In this document: positions 1-59,770 of the stretch, one piece after another
Layout: each line of letters starts with the position of its first letter
How positions within the stretch are numbered: the first letter of the stretch is position 1
Origin: Octopus sinensis
Lineage: Eukaryota
Length of the DNA: 64,000 nt
Assembly (NCBI RefSeq): GCF_006345805.1
Contig: NC_043003.1
Location: 96,844,001 to 96,908,000 of the forward strand
Direction: 5' to 3'
Notes under the pieces: generated by a model
Seen by the model: only the letters and a program-made list of their open reading frames with translations
The model's database searches: none
What the model was told of the DNA's origin: nothing
Made by a program: the position numbers and the translations under genes

Positions 1-32
1 TCCAAATTAAAGTTTTCACAATACCTTTTCTT

Positions 33-1513
33 TTATATATACTCCATTATGTCTACCAAATCTGAGTAAATTTCCATCGTTCGAGGCCACCTTGGAAGTC
101 GGCATTTCATATGTTTTAACACGTTCTCGCCAGCTGCCTCGATGAACGCCTCGGCGTCGTTCTCGTGGACGAGTGCACCTGTTTCTTTCCATTCGGTGCC
201 CATCCTGACCCACGTATATCCGTTTGTTTCGCTTATTAAATTTTCCATCTCCTCACAGTGCTTGTGATGGATCAACGTTCCATAGTATTTGAATTTTCTA
301 TTCGTACCTGCGTTTTCTCTAGTTTTTCTCTTAGGACTTACTTCCTCTTTTTTCTCCTCCCTTGGTTTCTCTCTTTCTCTCTTTTTGCTTTCTCTTCTTT
401 CTTTTTCCTTCTCTTGTCTTTTTGGCTCTTTGTCTGCCGTCTCTCTACCCTGTGCCTTAAGTTCCTTTCCTGTTGTTTCTTTTCCTTTTTGCATACCATC
501 TTTTCCTTTCTCTTGGTTCTGTTCCTTCTCTTGTTCTTTTCCTGCCTTTTCTCTTTCCTTTAATGTACTTTCCTTTTCTTTCTCTTGCTTCTGCCTTGGC
601 TCCTTCTCCTCTACTTCTGCACCCTGTGACTTTTGCTCCTTTTCTACTATCTTCTTCCCTTTGTTTTCATTTTCCTTCAGTGCGCTGTTACTTCCCTTCT
701 CTTGTTGTTTCTCCGTTATTTCCTTTTCCTTGTTTTCGCTGTTCTTTCCTTCGTGTTCGTTTTCCTTCTCTCCACTTTGTGTCTCTTTTTGCTCCGCTGT
801 GACTTCATACAGCGGACATTCCTTTTTTATGTGCCCTCTTGAACCGCACAGGTAGCAATTCGGTTTTCTGCCTTCCACTATTACACTAATTGTTTTTTCG
901 TTTTCTATTTCTATTTGGAAGGGAAATCTTTCGATGTCTTCAATTGTGGCCATCAGCCACAACTCGACTCCGAATCCCTTCCAATTTACAACGTCGTCTC
1001 CTTAATTGACCCTATTTCTACTTCCTCTTTTGCTGCTCCAATAATGGCTGTTACCAGCATTTCTGTTTTAATATTTGGGGGCACCTTTGGGACTCTTACC
1101 CGTACCCCTCGTCTTCCTTTATACGTCGGCCACATGGTGAAATTTTCCGCTTTCAGGACAGTGGAAGCCAATGAGGCCGCCACTTCCTTTGTTGCGCATC
1201 TCACCTCCACCGTACCATATTTCTTTCCTCTGTCTACAAAAGTCGCTTTTTTCATGATGTCCCCCAGACATTTCTCTATTTCTTCAATCGTCACTCTCAC
1301 CAGTTTTCTCGTGTTTCTATCTTGCGTTCTATACGTTATCGTCATGTTATTTTTCTCTTCTATTGTTTCCACAGGCGGGACCAGCTTCACGCTGTCACCC
1401 TCCCTTTTGACGAACTTCTCGTATTCCTTCAATTGTTCTTTTCTAAAGAACACTTCTTTTATTCTAAGTGACTCGTCACTTTTTGTTGTGGCGACCCCCG
1501 CGTAAGTCTCCAT
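33..1513 (-). CDS. Subtype A ORF1/gag-like protein, unit 1 (~490 aa; one frameshift near 990)
   Basis: ORFs 986-1513 and 33-962 join. METYAGV start, RRM-like region, CYLCGSRGHIKKEC zinc knuckle, E/K-rich linker, C-terminal ~85-aa globular-looking domain. Confidence 0.8.
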
Positions 1514-1759
1514 GACTTGAGGGTCGACACACCTTCTATAAAAGGTTCAAACACGCAGCGGCAAACGCCTCGCGCGATTCAATTTTTGACAATTTTTTAA
1601 CAGTTTTTTTCCAAAGTTTCACATGCAAAAAATAACTCACAACACACTTGGGTAAATTTCCGCCGTGTTGTTTTATTATTACCCACTAGGGGCTACATAG
1701 ATGGGACAATACAATCGGGAAAATGAATAATGAATTATGAAGTTTGTACAATGTGGTGC

Positions 1760-1802
1760 AATGCCCACTCGATCCCCGAAATCGAGCGGTTACATTTCGT
1801 CA
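1760..1802 (-). promoter_or_regulatory. Conserved 3'UTR stem-loop of array units (copies at ~3737, 5518, 7320, 9129, 10912)
   Basis: Sense ATGT-AA-CCGCTCGAT[TTCGGGG]ATCGAGTGG-GCAT. Conserved between subtypes A and B although the surrounding UTR is divergent. Confidence 0.6.
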
Positions 1803-1965
1803 TTTATTTTTATTCGTCAACAATATTTTCAAATAAAACATTTTATACATTTTCAACATACATTTCAAAAAGTTTTACAAAGTTCAACATTTCTTTTTTT
1901 TTTTTTTTTCCGAATTTAAAGTTCTTTTATCATTTCCAAATTAAGTTTTCACAATACCTTTTCTT

Positions 1966-3441
1966 TTATATATACTCCATTATGTCTACCAAATCTGAGT
2001 AAACTTCCATCGTTCGAGGCCACCTTGGAAGTCGGCATTTCATATGTTTTAACACGTTCTCGCCAGCTGCCTCGATGAACGCCTCGGCGTCGTTCTCGTG
2101 GACGAGTGCACCTGTTTCTTTCCATTCGGTGCCCATCCTGACCCACGTATATCCGTTTGTTTCGCTTATTAAATCTTCCATCTCCTCACAGTGCTTGTGA
2201 TGGATCAACGTTCCATAGTATTTGAATTTTCTATTCGTACCTACGTTTTCTCTAGTTTTTCTCTTAGGACTTACTTCCTCTTTTTTCTCCTCCCTCGGTT
2301 TCTCTCTTTCTCTCTTTTTGCTTTCTCTTCTTTCTTTTTCCTTCTCTTGTCTTTTTGGCTCTTTGTCTGCCGTCTCTCTACCTGTGCCTTAAGTTCCTTT
2401 CCTGTTGTTTCTTTTCCTTTTTGCATACCATCTTTTCCTTTCTCTTGGTTCTGTTCCTTCTCTTGTTCTTTTCCTGCTTTTTCTCTTTCCTTTAATGTAC
2501 TTTCCTTTTCTTTCTCTTGCTTCTGCCTTGGCTCCTTCTCCTCTACTTCTGCACCCTGTGACTTTTGCTCCTTTTCTACTATCTTCTTCCCTTTGTTTTC
2601 ATTTTCCTTCAGTGCGCTGTTACTCCCTTCTCTTGTTGTTTCTCCGTTATTTCCTTTTCCTTGTTTTCGCTGTTCTTTCCTTCGTGTTCGTTTTCCTTCT
2701 CTCCACTTTGTGTCTCTTTTTGCTCCGCTGTGACTTCATACAGCGGACATTCCTTTTTTATGTGCCCTCTTGAACCGCACAGGTAGCAATTCGGTTTTCT
2801 GCCTTCCACTATTACACTAATTGTTTTTTCGTTTTCTATTTCTATTGGAAGGGAAATCTTTCGATGTCTTCAATTGTGGCCATCAGCCACAACTCGACTC
2901 CGAATCCCTTCCAATTTACAACGTTCGTCTCCTTAATTGACCCTATTTCTACTTCCTCTTTTGCTGCTCCAATAATGGCTGTTACCAGCATTTCTGTTTT
3001 AATATTTGGGGGCACCTTTGGGACTCTTACCGTACCCCTCGTCTTCCTTATACGTCGGCCACATGGTGAAATTTTCCGCTTTCAGGACAGTGGAAGCCAA
3101 TGAGGCCGCCACTTCCTTTGTTGCGCATCTCACCTCCACCGTACCATATTTCTTCCTCTGTCTACAAAAGTCGCTTTTTTCATGATGTCCCCCAGACATT
3201 TCTCTATTTCTTCAATCGTCACTCTCACCAGTTTTCTCGTGTTTCTATCTTGCGTTCTATACGTTATCGTCATGTTATTTTTCTCTTCTATTGTTTCCAC
3301 AGGCGGGACCAGCTTCACGCTGTCACCCTCCCTTTTGACGAACTTCTCGTATTCCTTCAATTGTTCTTTTCTAAAGAACACTTCTTTTATTCTAAGTGAC
3401 TCGTCACTTTTTGTTGTGGCGACCCCCGCGTAAGTCTCCAT
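1966..3441 (-). CDS. Subtype A ORF1, unit 2 (several single-base frameshifts)
   Basis: Near-identical to unit 1, with single-base deletions at different places. Confidence 0.75.
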
Positions 3442-3844
3442 GACTTGAGGGTCGACACACCTTCTATAAAAGGTTCAAACACGCAGCGGCAAACGCCTCG
3501 CGCGATTCAATTTTTGACAATTTTTTAACAGTTTTTTTCCAAAGTTTCACATGCAAAAAATAACTCACAACACACTTGGGTAAATTTCCGCCGTGTGATT
3601 TTATTACTACCCACAAGGGGCGAACATAGAGGGGACAATACAATCGAGGAACTTAAAATAAGAAAGCGAAATGACAAGAAAAGGAAAAAATTAAAAGTAA
3701 AAAATGACATATGAAAGAATATTTACAATGAGATGTAAATGCCCACTCGATCCCCGAAATCGAGAGGTTACATTTTCGTCACATATATTTTACAATATTT
3801 TCTTTTTTTTTTTTTTCTTCTTTCTTCTCTCTCTTCTCACAATT

Positions 3845-5239
3845 TTATACGTATTCCATAATACCTTTCAAGTCTCTAAAGTCAATCACTGAGCCCTCAG
3901 GCAGCCGCTTTCATTCGAACACCCGTGTAAAAAATACACTCTCTCCAGCTGCTCTGAGGAACTCAGCGACTCTTTCTTCGGGGATCAGAGCAGTCTCCTG
4001 CCACTGATCAGTCATCCTGTTGACCCACACATGTCCCTCCGTACTACATGTCAATTCCTTCATTTCAGGGGTGAAATGGAAGGTTATTAACTTGTAGTAA
4101 TCTTGTTTTCGTCCTACGTTTTCCCTCGTTTTTCTTTTCGGGCTTACTTCTTCCTTGTTCTCCTCTCTTTGTTTCTCTCTTTCTCTCTTTTTGCTTTCTT
4201 CTTTCTTCTTCCTTCTCTTGTCTTTTTGGTTCTTTGTCTGTTCTCTCTTTCTCTCGTGTTTTATGTTCCTTTTCTTTTTCTTTTTGTGTGCCGTCTTTTC
4301 TTTTCGTTTGATTCTGATCTCTCTCTTGTTTTTTTCCTGTTGTTTCTTTTTCCTTTTTCTTTTCCTGACTCTGTTTTGGTTCCATTTCTTTCTTTTCTTT
4401 TATATCTTTTTCTTTCGTTGACTTATTATTTCCTTTCTCTTGTTGTTTTGTCTCCTTTTCTATGTTTTCTTTTTCATTTACCTTATTCTTCCTTTCTTCA
4501 AGTTCCTGCTCGTACTCCGCTATGAATTCGTATAGCGGGCACTCTTTTTTAATGTGCCCCCTTGTCCCGCACAAGTAGCAGTTTGGCTTTCTACCCCTAC
4601 AATTACACTGAGGGTTTTCTCGTCTTCGATTTCTATTCTGTAGGGGAACCTTTCAATGTCCTCTTTTGTGGCCATCAAACACAGTTCTACCCCATATCCT
4701 CTCCAGTTTACTGCATTGGACTCCTTAAAGGATTCCACCTCCACTTCCTCTTCTGCTGCTCCCAGAATAGCTGTTGCCAGCCACTCTGTTTTTATTTCTG
4801 GGGGTATATTCGGGATTTTAACCCGGACCCCTCTTCTTCCCTTGTATGAGGGCCACATTATGAATGTTTCCGCTCTTAGAACAGTGGTAGCCAGTGAGGC
4901 TGCAATTTCTTCCGTTGCACATCTCACCTCCACCGTACCAAATTTTTTTCCTCTACTCACGTAGGTCGATTTATCCATTATGTCTCCCAGACATTTTTCG
5001 ATCTCTGCTATCTCCACTCTTGCCAGTTTCTTTGTACTTTTGTCCTGGGTTCTATACGTTACAGTTTTGTTTTCTTTGTCCTCTTTTGCTTTCGCGGGGG
5101 GGATTAGCTTCACGCTATCACCCTCCCTTTTGAATAGCTTTTCGTATTCTTTGAGTTTATTCTTCTCAAAGAAAACATCCTTCACGACTATCGAGCAATC
5201 ATTACTTCTCTTTCCCGTGACCCCCGCGTAAGTCGCCAT
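3845..5239 (-). CDS. Subtype B ORF1, unit 3 (~465 aa, frameshifted)
   Basis: MATYAGV start, CGTRGHIKKEC knuckle, ends ...KGIMEYV. Confidence 0.75.
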
Positions 5240-5624
5240 GACTAGAGGGTCAATTCACCTTCTTCGGAAGGTTTCCACACGTAGAGGCAAACGCCTCGCG
5301 CGATAATTATCAATTTACACAACAAAATTCCTGTCTAGTCACAGATAACAACACACTTGGGTAAATTTCCGCCGTGGGATTTTATTACTACCCACAAGGG
5401 GCGAACATAGAGGGGACAATACAATCGAGGAACTTAAAATAAGAAAGCGAAATGACAAGAAAAGGAAAAAATTAAAAGTAAAAAATGACATATGAAAGAA
5501 TATTTACAATGAGATGTAAATGCCCACTCGATCCCCGAAATCGAGAGGTTACATTTTCGTCACATATATTTTACAATATTTTCTTTTTTTTTTTTTTCTT
5601 CTTTTTCTCTCTCTTCTCACAATT

Positions 5625-7023
5625 TTATACGTATTCCATAATACCTTTCAAGTCTCTAAAGTCAATCACTGAGCCCTCAGGCAGCCGCTCTTTCATTCGA
5701 ACACCCGTGTAAAAAATTACACTCTCTCCAGCTGCTCTGAGGAACTCAGCGACTCTTTCTTCGGGGATCAGAGCAGTCTCCTGCCACTGATCAGTCATCC
5801 TGTTGACCCACACATGTCCCTCCGTACTACATGTCAATTCCTTCATTTCAGGGGTGAAATGGAAGGTTATTAACTTGTAGTAATCTTGTTTTCGTCCTAC
5901 GTTTTCCCTCGTTTTTCTTTTCGGGCTTACTTCTTCCTTGTTCTCCTCTCTTTGTTTCTCTCTTTCTCTCTTTTTGCTTTCTTTTCTTTCTTCTTCCTTC
6001 TCTTGTCTTTTTGGTTCTTTGTCTGTTCTCTCTTTCTCTCGTGTTTTATGTTCCTTTTCTTTTTCTTTTTGTGTGCCGTCTTTTCTTTTCGTTTGATTCT
6101 GATCTCTCTCTTGTTTTTTTCCTGTTGTTTCTTTTTCCTTTTTCTTTTCCTGACTCTGTTTTGGTTCCATTTCTTTCTTTTCTTTTATATCTTTTTCTTT
6201 CGTTGACTATTATTTCCTTTCTCTTGTTGTTTTGTCTCCTTTTCTATGTTTTCTTTTTCATTTACCTTATTCTTCCTTTCTTCAAGTTCTGCTCGTACTC
6301 CGCTATGAATTCGTATAGCGGGCACTCTTTTTTAATGTGCCCCCTTGTCCCGCACAAGTAGCAGTTTGGCTTTCTACCCTCTACAATTACACTGAGGGTT
6401 TTCTCGTCTTCGATTTCTATTCTGTAGGGGAACCTTTCAATGTCCTCTTTTGTGGCCATCAAACACAGTTCTACCCCATATCCTCTCCAGTTTACTGCAT
6501 TGGACTCCTTAAAGGATTCCACCTCCACTTCCTCTTCTGCTGCTCCCAGAATAGCTGTTGCCAGCCACTCTGTTTTTATTTCTGGGGGTATATTCGGGAT
6601 TTTAACCCGGACCCCTCTTCTTCCCTTGTATGAGGGCCACATTATGAATGTTTCCGCTCTTAGAACAGTGGTAGCCAGTGAGGCTGCAATTTCTTCCGTT
6701 GCACATCTCACCTCCACCGTACCAAATTTTTTTCCTCTACTCACGTAGGTCGATTTATCCATTATGTCTCCCAGACATTTTTCGATCTCTGCTATCTCCA
6801 CTCTTGCCAGTTTCTTTGTACTTTTGTCCTGGGTTCTATACGTTACAGTTTTGTTTTCTTTGTCCTCTTTTGCTTTCGCGGGGGGGATTAGCTTCACGCT
6901 ATCACCCTCCCTTTTGAATAGCTTTTCGTATTCTTTGAGTTTATTCTTCTCAAAGAAAACATCCTTCACGACTATCGAGCAATCATTACTTCTCTTTCCC
7001 GTGACCCCCGCGTAAGTCGCCAT
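5625..7023 (-). CDS. Subtype B ORF1, unit 4
   Basis: ORFs 6262-7023 and 5625-6170; CYLCGTRGHIKKEC. Confidence 0.75.
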
Positions 7024-7428
7024 GACTAGAGGGTCAATTCACCTTCTTCGGAAGGTTTCCACACGTAGAGGCAAACGCCTCGCGCGATAATTATCAATTT
7101 ACACAACAAAATTCTGTCTAGTCACAGATAACAACACGTAAACATATACAACAACACATTGGGTAAATTTCCGCCGTGGGATTTTATTACTACCCACAAG
7201 GGGCGAACATAGAGGGGACAATACAATCGAGGAACTTAAAATAAGAAAGCGAAATGACAAGAAAAGGAAAAAATTAAAAGTAAAAAATGACATATGAAAG
7301 AATATTTACAATGAGATGTAAATGCCCACTCGATCCCCGAAATCGAGAGGTTACATTTTCGTCACATATATTTTACAATATTTTCTTTTTTTTTTTTTTT
7401 CTTCTTTCTTCTCTCTCTTCTCACAATT

Positions 7429-8850
7429 TTATACGTATTCCATAATACCTTTCAAGTCTCTAAAGTCAATCACTGAGCCCTCAGGCAGCCGCTCTTTCAT
7501 TCGAACACCCGTGTAAAAAATTACACTCTCTCCAGCTGCTCTGAGGAACTCAGCGACTCTTTCTTCGGGGATCAGAGCAGTCTCCTGCCACTGATCAGTC
7601 ATCCTGTTGACCCACACATGTCCCTCCGTACTACATGTCAATTCCTTCATTTCAGGGGTGAAATGGAAGGTTATTAACTTGTAGTAATCTTGTTTTCGTC
7701 CTACGTTTTCCCTCGTTTTTCTTTTCGGGCTTACTTCTTCCTTGTTCTCCTCTCTTTGTTTCTCTCTTTCTCTCTTTTTGCTTTCTTTTCTTTCTTCTTC
7801 CTTCTCTTGTCTTTTTGGTTCTTTGTCTGTTCTCTCTTTCTCTCGTGTTTTATGTTCCTTTTCTTTTTCTTTTTGTGTGCCGTCTTTTCTTTTCGTTTGA
7901 TTCTGATCTCTCTCTTGTTTTTTTCCTGTTGTTTCTTTTCCTTTTTGCATACCATCTTTTCCTTTCTCTTGGTTCTGTTCCTTCTCTTGTTCTTTTCCTG
8001 CTTTTTCTCTCTTTCTCTCGTGTTTTATGTTCCTTTTCTTTTTCTTTTTCTTTTTCTTTTTCTTTTTCTTTTTCTTTTTCTTTTTCATTTACCTTATTCT
8101 TCCTTTCTTCAAGTTCCTGCTCGTACTCCGCTATGAATTCGTATAGCGGGCACTCTTTTTTAATGTGCCCCCTTGTCCCGCACAAGTAGCAGTTTGGCTT
8201 TCTACCCTCTACAATTACACTGAGGGTTTTCTCGTCTTCGATTTCTATTCTGTAGGGGAACCTTTCAATGTCCTCTTTTGTGGCCATCAAACACAGTTCT
8301 ACCCCATATCCTCTCCAGTTTACTGCATTGGACTCCTTAAAGGATTCCACCTCCACTTCCTCTTCTGCTGCTCCAGAATAGCTGTTGCCAGCCACTCTGT
8401 TTTTATTTCTGGGGGTATATTCGGGATTTTAACCGGACCCCCTCTTCTTCCCTTGTATGAGGGCCACATTATGAATGTTTCCGCTCTTAGAACAGTGGTA
8501 GCCAGTGAGGCTGCAATTTCTTCCGTTGCACATCTCACCTCCACCGTACCAAATTTTTTTCCTCTACTCACGTAGGTCGATTTATCCATTATGTCTCCCA
8601 GACATTTTTCGATCTCTGCTATCTCCACTCTTGCCAGTTTCTTTGTACTTTTGTCCTGGGTTCTATACGTTACAGTTTTGTTTTCTTTGTCCTCTTTTGC
8701 TTTCGCGGGGGGGATTAGCTTCACGCTATCACCCTCCCTTTTGAATAGCTTTTCGTATTCTTTGAGTTTATTCTTCTCAAAGAAAACATCCTTCACGACT
8801 ATCGAGCAATCATTACTTCTCTTTCCCGTGACCCCCGCGTAAGTCGCCAT
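7429..8850 (-). CDS. Subtype B ORF1, unit 5, with subtype-A patch in linker
   Basis: ORFs 8320-8850, 7850-8395 and 7429-8088. Contains A-type KEQNQEKGKDGMQKGK. Confidence 0.75.
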
Positions 8851-9237
8851 GACTAGAGGGTCAATTCACCTTCTTCGGAAGGTTTCCACACGTAGAGGCA
8901 AACGCCTCGCGCGATAATTATCAATTTACACAACAAAATTCCTGTCTAGTCACAGATAACAACACACTTGGGTAAATTTCCGCCGTGGGATTTTATTACT
9001 ACCCACAAGGGGCGAACATAGAGGGGACAATACAATCGAGGAACTTAAAATAAGAAAGCGAAATGACAAGAAAAGGAAAAAATTAAAAGTAAAAAATGAC
9101 ATATGAAAGAATATTTACAATGAGATGTAAATGCCCACTCGATCCCCGAAATCGAGAGGTTACATTTTCGTCACATATATTTTACAATATTTTCTTTTTT
9201 TTTTTTTTTTCTTTTTCTTCTCTCTCTTCTCACAATT

Positions 9238-10634
9238 TTATACGTATTCCATAATACCTTTCAAGTCTCTAAAGTCAATCACTGAGCCCTCAGGCAGCCG
9301 CTCTTTCATTCGAACACCCGTGTAAAAAATTACACTCTCTCCAGCTGCTCTGAGGAACTCAGCGACTCTTTCTTCGGGGATCAGAGCAGTCTCCTGCCAC
9401 TGATCAGTCATCCTGTTGACCCACACATGTCCCTCCGTACTACATGTCAATTCCTTCATTTCAGGGGTGAAATGGAAGGTTATTAACTTGTAGTAATCTT
9501 GTTTTCGTCCTACGTTTTCCCTCGTTTTTCTTTTCGGGCTTACTTCTTCCTTGTTCTCCTCTCTTTGTTTCTCTCTTTCTCTCTTTTTGCTTTCTTTTCT
9601 TTCTTCTTCCTTCTCTTGTTTTTGGTTCTTTGTCTGTTCTCTCTTTCTCTCGTGTTTTATGTTCCTTTTCTTTTTCTTTTTGTGTGCCGTCTTTTCTTTT
9701 CGTTTGATTCTGATCTCTCTCTTGTTTTTTTCCTGTTGTTTCTTTTCCTTTTTCTTTTCCTGACTCTGTTTTGGTTCCATTTCTTTCTTTTCTTTTATAT
9801 CTTTTTCTTTCGTTGACTTATTATTTCCTTTCTCTTGTTGTTTTGTCTCCTTTTCTATGTTTTCTTTTTCATTTACCTTATTCTTCCTTTCTTCAAGTTC
9901 CTGCTCGTACTCCGCTATGAATCGTATAGCGGGCACTCTTTTTTAATGTGCCCCCTTGTCCCGCACAAGTAGCAGTTTGGCTTTCTACCCTCTACAATTA
10001 CACTGAGGGTTTTCTCGTCTTCGATTTCTATTCTGTAGGGGAACCTTTCAATGTCCTCTTTTGTGGCCATCAAACACAGTTCTACCCCATATCCTCTCCA
10101 GTTTACTGCATTGGACTCCTTAAAGGATTCCACCTCCACTTCCTCTTCTGCTGCTCCCAGAATAGCTGTTGCCAGCCACTCTGTTTTTATTTCTGGGGGT
10201 ATATTCGGGATTTTAACCGGACCCCCTCTTCTTCCCTTGTATGAGGGCCACATTATGAATGTTTCCGCTCTTAGAACAGTGGTAGCCAGTGAGGCTGCAA
10301 TTTCTTCCGTTGCACATCTCACCTCCACCGTACCAAATTTTTTTCCTCTACTCACGTAGGTCGATTTATCCATTATGTCTCCCAGACATTTTTCGATCTC
10401 TGCTATCTCCACTCTTGCCAGTTTCTTTGTACTTTTGTCCTGGGTTCTATACGTTACAGTTTTGTTTTCTTTGTCCTCTTTTGCTTTCGCGGGGGGGATT
10501 AGCTTCACGCTATCACCCTCCCTTTTGAATAGCTTTTCGTATTCTTTGAGTTTATTCTTCTCAAAGAAAACATCCTTCACGACTATCGAGCAATCATTAC
10601 TTCTCTTTCCCGTGACCCCCGCGTAAGTCGCCAT
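9238..10634 (-). CDS. Subtype B ORF1, unit 6
   Basis: ORFs 9915-10634 and 9238-9936. Confidence 0.75.
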
Positions 10635-11020
10635 GACTAGAGGGTCAATTCACCTTCTTCGGAAGGTTTCCACACGTAGAGGCAAACGCCTCGCGCGATA
10701 ATTATCAATTTACACAACAAAATTCCTGTCTAGTCACAGATAACAACACACTGGGTAAATTTCCGCCGTGGGATTTTATTACTACCCACAAGGGGCGAAC
10801 ATAGAGGGGACAATACAATCGAGGAACTTAAAATAAGAAAGCGAAATGACAAGAAAAGGAAAAAATTAAAAGTAAAAAATGACATATGAAAGAATATTTA
10901 CAATGAGATGTAAATGCCCACTCGATCCCCGAAATCGAGAGGTTACATTTTCGTCACATATATTTTACAATATTTTCTTTTTTTTTTTTTTTTTCTTCTT
11001 TCTTCTCTCTCTCTCACATT

Positions 11021-12415
11021 TTATACGTATTCCATAATACCTTTCAAGTCTCTAAAGTCAATCACTGAGCCCTCAGGCAGCCGCTCTTTCATTCGAACAC
11101 CCGTGTAAAAAATTACACTCTCTCCAGCTGCTCTGAGGAACTCAGCGACTCTTTCTTCGGGGATCAGAGCAGTCTCCTGCCACTGATCAGTCATCCTGTT
11201 GACCCACACATGTCCCTCCGTACTACATGTCAATTCCTTCATTTCAGGGGTGAAATGGAAGGTTATTAACTTGTAGTAATCTTGTTTTCGTCCTACGTTT
11301 TCCTCGTTTTTCTTTTCGGGCTTACTTCTTCCTTGTTCTCCTCTCTTTGTTTCTCTCTTCTCTCTTTTTGCTTTCTTTTCTTTCTTCTTCCTTCTCTTGT
11401 CTTTTTGGTTCTTTGTCTGTTCTCTCTTTCTCTCGTGTTTTATGTTCCTTTTCTTTTTCTTTTTGTGTGCCGTCTTTTCTTTTCGTTTGATTCTGATCTC
11501 TCTCTTGTTTTTTTCTGTTGTTTCTTTTTCCTTTTTCTTTTCCTGACTCTGTTTTGGTTCCATTTCTTTCTTTTCTTTTATATCTTTTTCTTTCGTTGAC
11601 TTATTATTTCCTTTCTCTTGTTGTTTTGTCTCCTTTTCTATGTTTTCTTTTTCATTTACTTATTCTTCCTTTCTTCAAGTTCCTGCTCGTACTCCGCTAT
11701 GAATTCGTATAGCGGGCACTCTTTTTTAATGTGCCCCCTTGTCCTGCACAAGTAGCAGTTTGGCTTTCTACCCTCTACAATTACACTGAGGGTTTTCTCG
11801 TCTTCGATTTCTATTCTGTAGGGGAACCTTTCAATGTCCTCTTTTGTGGCCATCAAACACAGTTCTACCCCATATCCTCTCCAGTTTACTGCATTGGACT
11901 CCTTAAAGGATTCCACCTCCACTTCCTCTTCTGCTGCTCCCAGAATAGCTGTTGCCAGCCACTCTGTTTTTATTCTGGGGGTATATTCGGGATTTTAACC
12001 CGGACCCCTCTTCTTCCCTTGTATGAGGGCCACATTATGAATGTTTCCGCTCTTAGAACAGTGGTAGCCAGTGAGGCTGCAATTTCTTCCGTTGCACATC
12101 TCACCTCCACCGTACCAATTTTTTTCCTCTACTCACGTAGGTCGATTTATCCATTATGTCTCCCAGACATTTTTCGATCTCTGCTATCTCCACTCTTGCC
12201 AGTTTCTTTGTACTTTTGTCCTGGGTTCTATACGTTACAGTTTTGTTTTCTTTGTCCTCTTTTGCTTTCGCGGGGGGGATTAGCTTCACGCTATCACCCT
12301 CCCTTTTGAATAGCTTTTCGTATTCTTTGAGTTTATTCTTCTCAAAGAAAACATCCTTTACGACTATCGAGCAATCATTACTTCTCTTTCCCGTGACCCC
12401 CGCGTAAGTCGCCAT
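11021..12415 (-). CDS. Subtype B ORF1, unit 7
   Basis: ORFs 12101-12415, 11656-11922 and 11021-11563. Confidence 0.75.
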
Positions 12416-12839
12416 GACTAGAGGGTCAATTCACCTTCTTCGGAAGGTTTCCACACGTAGAGGCAAACGCCTCGCGCGATAATTATCAATTTACACAACA
12501 AAATTCCTGTCTAGTCACAGATAACAACACACTTGGGTAAATTTCCGCCGTGGGTTCAAATATTCTTTCTTCTCTACATTGTATACTTTATAGACAATAG
12601 ACTTTTCTTTAATTTCATTTTTTATTATCCATCTGGACTATTCCATTTCTGTACGCTAATTTTATATTTAATTTATTCCCATTCATGGGAAACCACTTAT
12701 TCAAGTTCAAGTCATTGATGCAATTTTATATCAATTGTTATTTTTATTTTATTTTTATGTTACGATTATATTATACTTTAGTTTGATTTTAATTATTACT
12801 TACTACATATAATTCAATTGATATTATTATTTTTATTGT

Positions 12840-13253
12840 TAAAGTGAAAGTATCTGACATAAAATAGAGAAAATGTTTTTGTTTCACTTTTAACACGTAA
12901 TACTGAAATAGTGGAGAAGATATGATATTGCTATGGGCTCGCTCTAGGCAAGAAGTTAAACTTTTTTGCCCATGAAACTACAGGGACGCTAAGTAAGCCA
13001 TGTGTAAAATTTGAATGAAATTGGTCGTGTAGTTCTCAAGTTTTAGGGAATCGTAGTGGAGAAGATATGATATTGCTGTGGGCTCGCCCTAGTCAAAAAG
13101 TTCAAAATTTTTTTTGGCGATATCACTCTCCGGTCATGTGTAAGGCATGTGTAAAATTTGACTGAAATTGGTTGTGTAGTTCTCAAGTTTTAGGGAAACA
13201 CACAGACAGACAGACAGACAGAAACATATTCTCAATTTTATATATATAAAGAT
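12840..13253 (+). mobile_element. Helitron/Helentron-like (DINE/Lep1-type) non-autonomous element fragment
   Basis: Internal ~145-bp duplication (AGTGGAGAAGATATGATATTGCT...GTGTAAAATTTGA...GTAGTTCTCAAGTTTTAGGGA). Ends (ACAG)n...TTTATATATATAAAGAT. Confidence 0.4.
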
Positions 13254-13839
13254 AATTCAATCTAGCAGCTATAGTAAGTGGTATAAGCACATGTCGATCT
13301 GGACTAATTCTCTTCTGCACTCAATTAAAATTTTCATATTTTAATTTCTCCCATTCATGCAAAGCCACATATTCAAGTTCAAGTCCTTGATACATTTTAT
13401 ACTAATTGCTATTTTTTCTTTTCATTGTTATATAACGATTTAATTACCATTTTAATAAAATAAAATATATTTAATTACTACTTACTATATTTACTATATT
13501 TAATTCAATTGTTATTATTACCTCTAACTTTTTTTGCAATTTTTTTTCTAAATTTCTTATGGAACGTCGAGTGGATCGTATGCGTACAATATATTTTTAT
13601 ATGCTGTTTATATATTTGTATATTACTATATATTTCTAAACGTCGGACTTTATGCCTGTTCAGTAGATATAAATGAATATATGAATATATGTATGTGTTT
13701 GATCTTTCTGTGGATTTTGTAGTGCTTTTGTAGGTGCTGCTCGCATTGCCTCACCTAGGATTAAAAAGTGTATACAGCTCTGCTATATATTTTGAGCGTT
13801 GTTGTCACTAACGATCTCAAGATATTACTTTATATTTTG

Positions 13840-56599: not shown

Positions 56600-59540
56600 A
56601 TGTGCATGTGTGTGTAACTTTCATCGGTATGTATATTGGCGAAAGATATCAAAATTGGCGAGAAAGCTTTAAAAACTCGGCGCATTTCCAGCACTATTTG
56701 TTGTGAATCAAGTTAGATATTCCTCAGAAATGCTTCACCTGTTTGAAACCGATCACAAATTATGATACAAATAAATAAATAAATAATTCCCAGTAGGCCT
56801 GTTACCGCTCAAATAATTTGCCAAAAATATTTCTAGTTATAAACTCATTATTCTACATCATATAAACCTAATACGTTATAAATATTTAATTTTTTTTCAG
56901 ATACGGAACTGTTTTGTAATTACATTATATGATGTTTCAAATAATCTTATATCAATTATAATGATGGTAACGAAATAAAATACAATAAACTTTATAGAAA
57001 AATGAAATGCTTTGACGTTCACGTGCTTCCAGGATCATTAACACAGTTATTGAACGCAAATTGTCTCAACAAAAATCAAATCCGACTCGTGCATATAGGC
57101 TACCATGACTTCTTCCCATCCCCCCTCTCTCTCTCTTCTCTTACATATACACACCAACATATATTTATATGTACACACAGTGCCTATCTTCGGAAATACT
57201 TTTGCCAATAAAATATTTTCTTATTTAAACAATGATTGGGTGCAATTACTGATAGAAACAACGTACCATATTACAATTAAATCACCATATTATATTACAT
57301 GTATTTATTTTATTGACTCAGATATTTATTACAAGCAATTATATTATCAATCTCGGGAGATTCGAACCCAGCATATAGATAGATAAGGTAAGATACTGTA
57401 AGGTATTTATTCCGGTATTATCCTTTGTTTTGTTTCGACTTGTCATTTTGTTGCTTTGTTTTATTTGATTAGTATTGATTTCTCTTAATCAAATGCGTGG
57501 TATGAGTTTTCCAGGCTGCAATCAGATATGTGATTATATGGCATTCATGACATTCTCAAGAGTACATCATAAGCAAGTTAAGAAAAATACTTAAGATACA
57601 TCTAATTGGGATTCAAAAATGAGATATAAAATAATGATTTAAAACATTTTTGTTAATAAAATATGAGATTGTAGTTTTAGTTTTAGACAGGTATTCCAAA
57701 AGAAAAAAATAAATAACACCGCCAGAGTCATCTTTATACCTATATGACGAAAATAACCATTTATTACAATGCCTTTTACCATTCGCACGATACGTTATGT
57801 CTCTTTTCCTAAGAGAATAGTATATAACTTTCTTTTCAGAATAGAAATAACTATTTATTGTTTAGTGCATAGCAAAGTATAAGTTTGAATCCAACAGCAA
57901 TTTAGTATTTTTTATTTTATTTTCGAAAAACAACGTTTTCGTCCCTCCCTCATTCATATTGATCTTAGGTGTATGGCATCAAATTGTATTAATTATTTGT
58001 TTTTCATTATCGCTTTGTCTTTTCTCCATAATCTGCAGATGTAAATTTGTCTTTCCTTCATAATCTCGTTTTGTCTTTCCTACGTAATCTACAGATCCAC
58101 ATTCCAATATTTTTATATTCCATTGATAAAGCTCATAGACAGTTAAAAAATCTGTGTTACACTTCAGTTTTTCAGAGTTATGTATAAATATAAGCGTAAA
58201 GAAAAGTGAAATGAAACAGAAGACGCAATCAGAGATACTATTTGTTCAAATCAAAATGTTTTTCCTCAGAGAGATTCAGTGAAACTGGCGACAATTGGTA
58301 TGTATAAAATCAAAATTTAGTACATATCAAAATACTTCTATTGCATAGTTAGGTCCCATTACCGATGGACAGCCAAAAGCTGTTTTCCTAGCAAAGAAAA
58401 AAGAAGCTATATCATTAATTAATAGCGACAAAAAAATTATACATAGTGAGAATGATAACACGACATATTAATGACATGTTTTGGATCAAGAAGTTATACT
58501 GGAACGTTAGTCTGCATTTCCGAATATAAGCTGCCTTTGACTGCTGATTGGGTGGTGGGACCTGGCTGTGTAGTAGATTAATTCTGCTGGAAAACAAAAG
58601 TTGGCTTCATTCTTACGAGGCAAAGACTCACCAGCTTGAATGAGCTTCCCTAACAAAAAAAAAAAAATTAAGCTTTGCTAATTATTGAATTTTCTATTTA
58701 AATCCAGAGTAAAGTTAAGCTGTATTTTATATTCCGAAGGACCCTTTCTTTTTTCATCATCTGTAGAAGCACATTTTAATGTGACTATATCTCAACAATC
58801 CAGTACATTCTGTTGCGATTGAACTTCAGTCAACTTTAAACTCTTCGGACTTGAATACAAGCGAAAAAAGTCAGTTCTGAATTTTGTTATAACACATTAT
58901 TAATTCTCAACACAAGACGAACTATTTATGACCGAAGCATAGCTTCAAACAAAGACAGTATACACAAATGGAGGGTTTCACCATTTGTCAATTTAATAAT
59001 TGCCCACCACTAATACAACAGCATTCTTTTTCCAGAGTTGTACTTATGATATGGGCCAAATTTGAGTGAATAGATCATGACACTTCTATAGAGCCTGTTC
59101 TATAAGTATGGTATCTACTTGAGCATTTACATACCACATATAATCTCTCTTCTTAATTGTGACACACTACATTTCAAATTTATCCCTGGTTCATGTTCTA
59201 CGTGAAAGTATAATACTTTTCCTGATTTCAAAATAGCAACCGTTTTACCAAAAACAGAATAAATTTGTTGTGAACATTGTGTCATTATTAGAAATATAAT
59301 AAAAGATCTTAACAAGTTAACCAACTGAATGAGAATAACGATTCAGTGCTCTTCTTTTCTTCTCAAGGAAAGAAAAAATCGTTAAATGGTGTTCATGGAC
59401 GTAAAGCACAAGGCCTGAAATTTGGGAGAGAGGGATAATCGATTATATCAACCTCAGAATTCACCTAGTACTTATTTTAGCAACCGCGGAAGGGTGACAG
59501 GCGGAATTTGAACTCAGAACGTAAAGACGGACGAAATACC

Positions 59541-59770
59541 TATTTCTTTACTACCCACAAAGAGCCAAACACAGAGAGGACAAACAAGGACAGACAAATG
59601 GATTAAGTCGATTACATCGATCCCAGTGCGTAACTGGTACTTATTTAATCGACCCCGAAAGGATGAAAGGCAAAGTCGACCTCGGCGGATTTTGAACTTA
59701 GAACGTAAAGACGGACGAAATACCGCTAAGCATTTCACGTGGTGTGCTAACGATTCTGCTAGTTCACTGC
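59541..59770 (-). mobile_element. tRNA-SINE with Tx1-like 3' tail, nested in a same-family SINE
   Basis: Tail TTGTCCTCTCTGTGTTTGGCTCTTTGTGGGTAGTAAAGAAATA is followed by GGTATTTCGTCCG, which also occurs in its own head. Confidence 0.75.

What the first reader, a model, noticed from the sequence alone, without database searches (positions are those of the whole stretch)
1639..1670. 29-nt junction motif shared by both subtypes: target site or conserved 5' terminus
ACAACACACTTGGGTAAATTTCCGCCGTG, with minor indels in two copies, ends every unit including the last at 12552, while the sequence next to it differs between A and B. Only 3 variable nt (TTG/TGA/GGA) separate it from the next unit's tail. 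This is the geometry expected if each new copy inserts at the 5' end of a resident copy or duplicates a fixed target, that is, self-targeting array growth (inference).
Basis: partly seen in the sequence, partly recalled or inferred. Interest (0 to 1): 0.7.

Follow-up and report, generated by a model that had tools for sequence, protein, structure and literature searches.

The report
Retrotransposons stacking on a reusable target
The repeated 29-letter junction is a copied landing site joined to the start of two enzyme-less jumping genes; these and their enzyme-bearing partner sit in ordered chains at one spot of a common repeat across this animal genome, and the chains likely grow because each newcomer inserts in front of the last, a mostly known route with an unexplained fixed order.

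Summary
The motif is real (5 exact and 2 one-base-deleted copies) but composite. On the element strand, its first 11 nt belong to a 12-15-nt copy of a host target site; the other 18 nt start the 5' UTR shared by A and B. A and B are ORF1-only partners of an autonomous L1/Tx1-like element (C) lying just left of the window. They insert at one position in a ~1.15-kb non-autonomous Helitron-like repeat, inside a decayed ORF1 scrap (998 empty sites by exact pattern). A host single-base variant reappears at the next junction in 13 of 14 loci versus 0 of 53, and unlike neighbours share rare junction variants, so arrays likely grow by insertion into the duplicated target in front of the resident copy. 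Off-target full-length copies carry the target-like head plus 3-8 nt of host flank, so the head likely also travels in the RNA. Unexplained: C is 3'-most in 26 of 27 complete mixed arrays. Targeting is a preference: 25 of 55 loci are off-target. The mechanism matches Drosophila R1 tandems and crocodilian Tx1-Mar/SINEU. This scan noted a similar system in another genome (e1-8825537).

The parts
1657..1668 (-). Target-like head of unit U1 (12 nt, ACACGGCGGAAA on the element strand); a variant of the host target ACATGGAGGAAA
1639..1656 (-). 18 nt of 5' UTR shared by A and B, not by C or the host
1669..1719 (-). 3' terminal ~50 nt of U2, shared by A, B, C and E (88-96% identical), ending AATAAAA-CA without a poly(A) tail; likely the signal read by ORF2
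   Evidence: A-C 92%, B-C 96%; role inferred
1..1668 (-). U1, ORF1-only unit of type A; continues about 270 nt left of the window, followed there by C, B, C and the host right flank
1669..3596 (-). U2, type A (1928 bp); ORF1 1966-3441 broken by indels; internal A-run at 1894-1909
   Evidence: zf-CCHC in U1 E=1.4e-5
3597..5377 (-). U3, type B (1781 bp); ORF1 3845-5239 broken by indels
5378..7179 (-). U4, type B; head with one base missing and a ~20-nt insertion behind it
   Evidence: zf-CCHC E=8.5e-5
7180..8988 (-). U5, type B with an 89-nt patch identical to type A at 7922-8010
8989..10771 (-). U6, type B; motif with one base missing
10772..12553 (-). U7, type B, the 5'-most unit, abutting the host; head CCACGGCGGAAA
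12554..13252 (-). Left part of the host repeat (non-autonomous Helitron-like, starts A|TC at 13252); its last ~55 nt are part of a decayed ORF1 scrap that runs across the insertion point
12587..12592 (-). TATAAA in the host, first T 39 nt upstream of the insertion point; candidate promoter, untested
   Evidence: 39 nt in 30 of 49 host junctions

Best explanation
The junction is a target-site duplication joined to the A/B 5' UTR, and the arrays likely grow by repeated target-primed insertion of a Tx1-like LINE and its ORF1-only partners in front of the resident copy. Shown: an empty host site TTTGAAC|ACATGGAGGAAA|GCACC; filled sites with a copy of the 12-15 nt on both sides; 14-17-nt duplications at off-target sites; host and neighbour variants passed to the next junction upstream; full-length off-target copies that carry a target-like head and 3-8 nt of host flank. 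Inferred: C's endonuclease nicks in front of ACATG; the RNA's shared 3' 50 nt primes copying; the copied head anneals to the target's overhang, so the left of the new junction comes from the target and the right from the donor; host flank plus duplication rebuild a target for the next round; donors are mostly the front units that abut the host. The window's CACGGCGGAAA is one donor-borne head variant that entered this array and was then inherited.
For: Autonomous C with a 1132-aa APE-RT-zf ORF2 and the same 3' end as A/B. 998 empty sites. Host variant ACCTG at next junction 13 of 14 versus 0 of 53, p=5.5e-13; two steps up 6 of 8 versus 1 of 28. Unlike neighbours: variant head identical in 16 of 36 pairs, shuffle mean 0.85, max 5 of 5000 shuffles; per position e.g. 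23 of 24 at position 3, 23 of 25 at position 7. Distance from own host 12-mer rises with rank: 1.6, 2.9, 3.2, 3.2, 3.5. First-insert heads differ from their host at position 16 in 64 of 64, position 7 in 26, positions 1-6 in 2-7. Off-target duplications of 12-19 nt at 10 of 25 loci, plus 15 and 17 nt at two more. Host-flank extensions at 7 loci; a mirror search for extensions from a unit's 3' end gave 13 hits, none with a head. A and C siblings are mostly closer to a copy elsewhere (nearest in same array 9 of 33 and 1 of 9).
Against: Targeting is loose: of 55 loci behind the first 100 of 510 3' ends, 26 are at the main site, 2 at a second host site, 2 are other arrays and 25 lie in unrelated sequence (counted by eye). 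15 of those 25 showed no exact duplication of 12 nt or more. Some arrays do not fit pure 5' growth (C8_83.13: host variant at both outer junctions, not the middle; C2_118.3 alternates). For B, the nearest copy is in the same array for 26 of 52, so local duplication may lengthen B runs. With one pair per array, exact identity of variant heads is 7 of 21. No transcript start was observed. Loci were chosen by junction patterns on the first contigs and by B hits, which favours arrays.
Confidence: 0.82

Rival explanations
1. One insertion event with template jumps, or retrotransposition of read-through multimer RNAs, builds each array at once; inner junctions are donor heads only.
For: Would explain C being 3'-most in 26 of 27 complete mixed arrays and the C8_83.13 pattern.
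Against: Inner junctions carry the local host variant (13 of 14 versus 0 of 53; two steps up 6 of 8 versus 1 of 28), which needs the resident's 5' end to be joined to the target first. Distances of paired units across loci correlate weakly (rho 0.28, p=0.066 for 19 A>C pairs; rho 0.45, p=0.11 for 9 B>C pairs).
Confidence: 0.08
2. A dimer forms by double insertion and like-unit runs (B5, A2) then expand by unequal exchange or slippage. This can coexist with the main model.
For: Window B units differ by 0-0.4% substitutions, apart from U5; B nearest neighbour in same array 26 of 52; U5 holds an A patch, a sign of exchange between units. Proposed for R1 in bioRxiv 10.1101/158386 (passages).
Against: Cannot make unlike neighbours; B copies on contig C1 are as close to window B (0.06-0.12%) as siblings are; A siblings are mostly closer to other loci.
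Confidence: 0.3
3. The motif is only a conserved 5' terminus or promoter, and the arrays spread by hitchhiking on the Helitron-like host or by ectopic copying of filled sites.
For: 18 nt are element sequence; heads occur at off-target sites. One 26.7-kb copy of the window's array lies 112 kb away.
Against: Heads track the local host and neighbour, not the element type; array content differs from locus to locus (35 compositions among 72 loci); 5'-truncated C copies also sit at the host site; both units share a nearest locus in only 5 of 19 and 1 of 9 pairs.
Confidence: 0.05

Closest known systems
Drosophila R1 tandem arrays and melanogaster-type R1 5' junctions (Stage and Eickbush 2009, PMC2718515; passages read)
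   Same: New copies insert into the 14-bp duplication at the 5' end of a resident copy; some transcripts carry upstream target sequence, seen at off-target insertions as duplication plus extra target letters.
   Different: R1 targets 28S rDNA and stacks like with like; here the target is a dispersed Helitron-like repeat, at least four ORF1-only families share the stack with the autonomous element in a fixed order, and the duplicated letters themselves become a heritable, mutating head.
Crocodilian Tx1-Mar and SINEU in Mariner-N4_AMi (Kojima 2015, PMC4494074; sections 14 and 20 and passages)
   Same: Tx1-clade LINE and non-autonomous partners prefer a site in a non-autonomous DNA transposon; tandem copies sandwich a 16-bp duplication by sequential insertion; a second site in the same host; transcription from the flank proposed.
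   Different: Partners there are snRNA-headed SINEs; here they encode ORF1, arrays reach 17 units, and the target lies in a decayed ORF1 scrap of a related element.
HAL1 (half-L1) of mammals (PMC5753468, passages)
   Same: Non-autonomous L1-group elements encoding only ORF1.
   Different: The passages read mention no target specificity or arrays; the original HAL1 paper was not held.
R2 with upstream self-cleavage (Eickbush et al. 2013, PMC3774820; abstract only)
   Same: Target sequence left on the RNA 5' end is proposed to anneal to the target and give uniform 5' junctions.
   Different: R2 has a restriction-like endonuclease and an HDV-like ribozyme; no Rfam ribozyme match was found here.

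Membership tests
L1-group non-LTR retrotransposon (unit C) | ORF1 plus ORF2 with N-terminal APE endonuclease, RT and C-terminal zinc motif | tested here: met
   Exo_endo_phos 4.5e-13, RVT_1 3.8e-32, zf-RVT 1.4e-8; best solved structure human L1 ORF2p, E=1.7e-67, ahead of R2
L1-group non-LTR retrotransposon (unit C) | Target-site duplications and 5' truncation | tested here: met
   12-19-nt duplications at 10 of 25 off-target loci, mostly 5'-truncated C
Tx1 clade | RT groups with named Tx1 elements in a tree | not tested
   No named Tx1 reference among the 120 listed of 1395 homologues; no tree built
Tx1 clade | Target preference for a multicopy sequence | tested here: met
   26 of 55 loci at one position of one repeat; on contig C1, ACATG hosts 16 filled/32 empty versus ACCTG 1/53, p=1.8e-5 (counts by eye; test)
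Tx1 clade | ORF1 with CCHC zinc knuckle | tested here: met
   zf-CCHC in A and B; feature recalled as typical of Tx1 ORF1
HAL1-like ORF1-only elements (A, B) | Encodes ORF1 only, no RT | tested here: met
   No ORF2 in 1.8-1.9 kb; unbroken ORF1 of 400 aa or more in 9 of 62 A and 10 of 69 B copies
HAL1-like ORF1-only elements (A, B) | Moved in trans by an autonomous partner | tested here: inconclusive
   Shared 3' 50 nt, same site, own duplications; no assay
Non-autonomous Helitron (host) | 5' TC after A, 3' CTAG before T, hairpin just before the 3' end (features recalled) | tested here: met
   A|TC in 25 of 26, CTAG|T in 54 of 58; hairpin visible in the alignment
Non-autonomous Helitron (host) | Autonomous Rep-helicase partner with the same ends | not tested
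   No search made
R2-type ribozyme processing | HDV-like ribozyme at the 5' end | tested here: inconclusive
   No relevant Rfam match at E<=5 in 1500-5500; no dedicated descriptor search

The most novel reading that the evidence does not exclude
The stacks are a queue for the front seat. The autonomous element lands first, and ORF1-only parasites are then inserted directly in front of it, by the same enzyme switching from its own RNA to foreign RNA or because its front end is a better target. Only the front unit borrows the host's TATA promoter and becomes a donor, and it passes on an RNA-borne copy of the landing site that mutates and is inherited as an address tag, able to found new target sites (a second site in the host and a new site inside unit D's head). 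Basis: C 3'-most in 26 of 27 arrays against 9.7 expected; C-first sites gained a second unit in 38 of 48 versus 5 of 14 A-first sites (p=0.006); downstream C copies do not look older than the units in front.
Probability: 0.3. Interest if true: 0.75.

Novelty: new variant of a known kind. Interest (0 to 1): 0.52.

Why it matters
It gives dozens of independent, ordered records of successive target-primed insertions with marked junctions, so second-strand joining in an APE-type LINE can be read from sequence: which letters come from the target and which from the RNA. It also shows ORF1-only parasites and their helper sharing one landing site with a strong order, a testable case of cis versus trans preference and of promoter competition. 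The basic route to tandem arrays is already described for R1 and Tx1-Mar/SINEU.

Tried and rejected
Spliced-leader, ribozyme or small-RNA identity of the motif: Rfam gave one weak, irrelevant hit; the target turned out to be a host repeat. DIRS/Penelope/Helitron nature of the units: rejected once C's APE-RT ORF2 was found. Age order (C old, A/B young) as the cause of polarity: the upstream unit had the smaller nearest-neighbour distance in only 7 of 28 pairs; confounded by lineage density. Whole-array copying: weak Mantel correlations. Expression: no RNA holder listed on record; contigs cannot show a start. One contig of a run guessed to be RNA bridges the host/head joint (record 30); not used as evidence. 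Folding the 3' 75 nt gave weak, inconsistent structures, -7 to -10 kcal/mol, no shuffle control. One search's pattern matched only D-type ends (30 sites), so a like-for-like genome count of filled A/B/C sites is missing. The first tblastn failed on a script error and was rerun. Protein Atlas gave no answer. Two papers (Tx1L endonuclease; HAL1 origin) were not held. Paper searches listed no paper on a Tx1-like element targeting a Helitron or on ordered helper/ORF1-only stacks; subscription journals, Repbase entries and supplements were not seen.

Full report
Observation. The 29-mer occurs exactly five times in the window and never in 100 shuffles; two more copies lack one base. It marks seven head-to-tail units on the minus strand: two of type A (1928 bp) and five of type B (1781-1809 bp), about 69% identical between types. 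Both encode an ORF1 with a CCHC knuckle and no reverse transcriptase. All complete window units have broken frames, while 9 of 62 A and 10 of 69 B full-length copies in hand keep an ORF of 400 aa or more; whether the window's indels are real or assembly errors was not settled.

Both ends of the array. The window is G000:C7:96844001-96908000. In element sense the array reads host-left, B5, A2, C, B, C, host-right. C is 5250 bp with ORF1 and an unbroken 1132-aa ORF2 carrying APE endonuclease, RT and zf-RVT domains; its best solved relative is human L1 ORF2p and its best named homologue is from the octopod Argonauta hians, 64% identical. A, B and C share only the last ~50 nt (88-96%) and the first 12-13 nt. 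I call C Tx1-like for its architecture and target preference; clade membership was not tested by a tree.

The host and the empty site. The same left and right flanks occur at other loci and, joined, as empty sites: TTTGAAC|ACATGGAGGAAA|GCACC. An exact pattern finds 998 empty sites. The host is about 1.15 kb, begins A|TC in 25 of 26 and ends CTAG|T in 54 of 58 copies read, with a hairpin before the end, which fits a non-autonomous Helitron (features recalled). The sequence across the insertion point is a decayed ORF1 scrap related to C and B (tblastn E=1.7e-7 and 3.6e-9 against the 1160-nt empty copy).

What the motif is. Its first 11 nt, with the letter before them, form a 12-nt head that aligns with the host target (CCACGGCGGAAA or ACACGGCGGAAA versus ACATGGAGGAAA). 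The other 18 nt are A/B 5' UTR. The three variable letters are the upstream unit's last two letters plus head position 1. Across the genome the head varies by array: the exact 29-mer is in 18 of 127 A/B heads, at 5 loci; the 18-nt part within two edits in 69 of 127. Many solo insertions have a host-identical head, a plain duplication.

Test of target reuse. I tabulated 72 filled loci whose 3' host junction was in hand, leaving out the near-identical duplicate of the window's array. Where the host reads ACCTG, the next junction upstream has the C in 13 of 14; where it reads ACATG, in 0 of 53; two steps up 6 of 8 versus 1 of 28 (the 14 loci are all hits). Among 51 unlike neighbour pairs in 29 arrays, the downstream head is a non-host variant in 36 and the upstream head is identical in 16, against a shuffle mean of 0.85 and maximum of 5; with one pair per array it is 7 of 21, some misses being one-base offsets. 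Heads drift from their own host with rank. So a newcomer takes the left of its head from the resident junction.

Test of an RNA-borne head. First inserts differ from their host mostly right of position 6, and the same variants recur on different contigs. Off-target insertions have their own 12-19-nt duplications (10 of 25 loci, some including microhomology or simple repeats). Full-length ones carry the head behind that duplication, preceded by 3-8 nt matching the end of host-left at 7 loci (C3_89.8, C11391, C3_1.18, C1_76.26, C3_58.33; L187, L188, found by a search aimed at this form); one locus is ambiguous and one starts inside the head. The mirror search for extensions from a unit's 3' end returned 13 hits, none with a head. 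Donors therefore appear to be front units (inference). A TATAAA lies 39 nt before the insertion point in 30 of 49 host junctions, which would put a start about 8 nt before it; this is untested.

Order. C is 3'-most in 26 of 27 complete mixed arrays that contain it (9.7 expected), A>C outnumbers C>A 21 to 5, B>C outnumbers C>B 10 to 2, B>A outnumbers A>B 12 to 2. C-first sites gained a second unit in 38 of 48, A-first sites in 5 of 14 (5 loci left out), while on contig C1 about a third of ACATG hosts are filled at all. Downstream C copies do not look older. Loci were picked by junction patterns and B hits, so these shares are biased toward arrays. I cannot tell a coupled cis-then-trans reaction from better target quality or waves of activity.

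Against. Targeting is a preference: 25 of 55 loci behind the first 100 of 510 listed 3' ends lie in unrelated sequence, most of them truncated, with 13 of 24 tallied beginning AC. Two arrays break pure 5' growth. B runs may also lengthen locally, and U5 holds an A patch.

Comparison. R1 tandems form by insertion into the duplication at a resident's 5' end, and some R1 RNAs carry upstream target sequence (PMC2718515, passages). SINEU-3 tandems sandwich a duplication in a Mariner target of Tx1-Mar (PMC4494074, sections 14 and 20, passages). Double insertion is general in Drosophila (10.1101/158386, passages). ORF1-only HAL1 is known (PMC5753468, passages). An octopus repeat annotation counts recent L1-Tx1 families but the passages seen say nothing on targets (PMC13282606). 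Six searches listed no report of this combination; supplements and closed journals were not seen. The scan's own notes describe a similar system in another genome (e1-8825537) and a parallel one in a SINE here (e1-8665859); my reading was written before these were shown, and they are not support.

Verdict. Real, largely explained by a known mechanism, with the ordered helper-and-parasite stack and the heritable head as the new parts.

Noticed in passing
G000:C7:96721001-96751000 (L027-L029): The window's array and flanks recur 112 kb away, 99.96% identical over at least 26.7 kb with the same indels: a very recent segmental duplication or a false duplication in the assembly.
   Followed up: partly
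L047:4432-6112 and others: A further ORF1-only unit D (1681 bp) uses the same 3' cut, directly abuts the host right flank at 30 sites, and at 9 loci has one precise 5' joint that removes 11 nt of host-left; later units then insert at new sites in D's own head. Resembles melanogaster-type R1 deletions.
   Followed up: partly
L116, L117 (G000:C2:101.79 Mb and 141.92 Mb): A diverged sublineage (81-91% identical) stacks at a second site in the host's right part, with its own head ATTCCAGTC.
   Followed up: no
window 59540-59740, minus strand: An abundant short repeat ends in a tail like that of these elements (closest to D) and is itself followed by the start of another copy; the family's last ~35 nt draw contig depth far above the rest of the unit. 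Possible SINE partner of a related LINE.
   Followed up: partly
window 7922-8010: 89 nt inside B unit U5 are identical to type A: conversion, template switch or misassembly.
   Followed up: partly
window 1740-1800 and 3730-3780: A and B share a ~90-nt segment with a strong inverted repeat between an internal A-run and the 3' end, absent from C; no Rfam match.
   Followed up: no
runs X1 and X6 laid on window 11800-13300: Contigs under other organism codes show the empty site and a unit-to-unit joint with a head variant not seen in G000, so the system likely exists in related species.
   Followed up: partly
L039-L040 (G000:C17:14.517-14.519 Mb): A fourth ORF1-only type E (1922 bp, 71-74% identical to A and B) sits in mixed arrays.
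   Followed up: no
junction heads, e.g. window 1657-1672: End plus head (CAACATGGCGG) resembles the YY1 initiator motif of L1 promoters; motif recalled, not tested.
   Followed up: no
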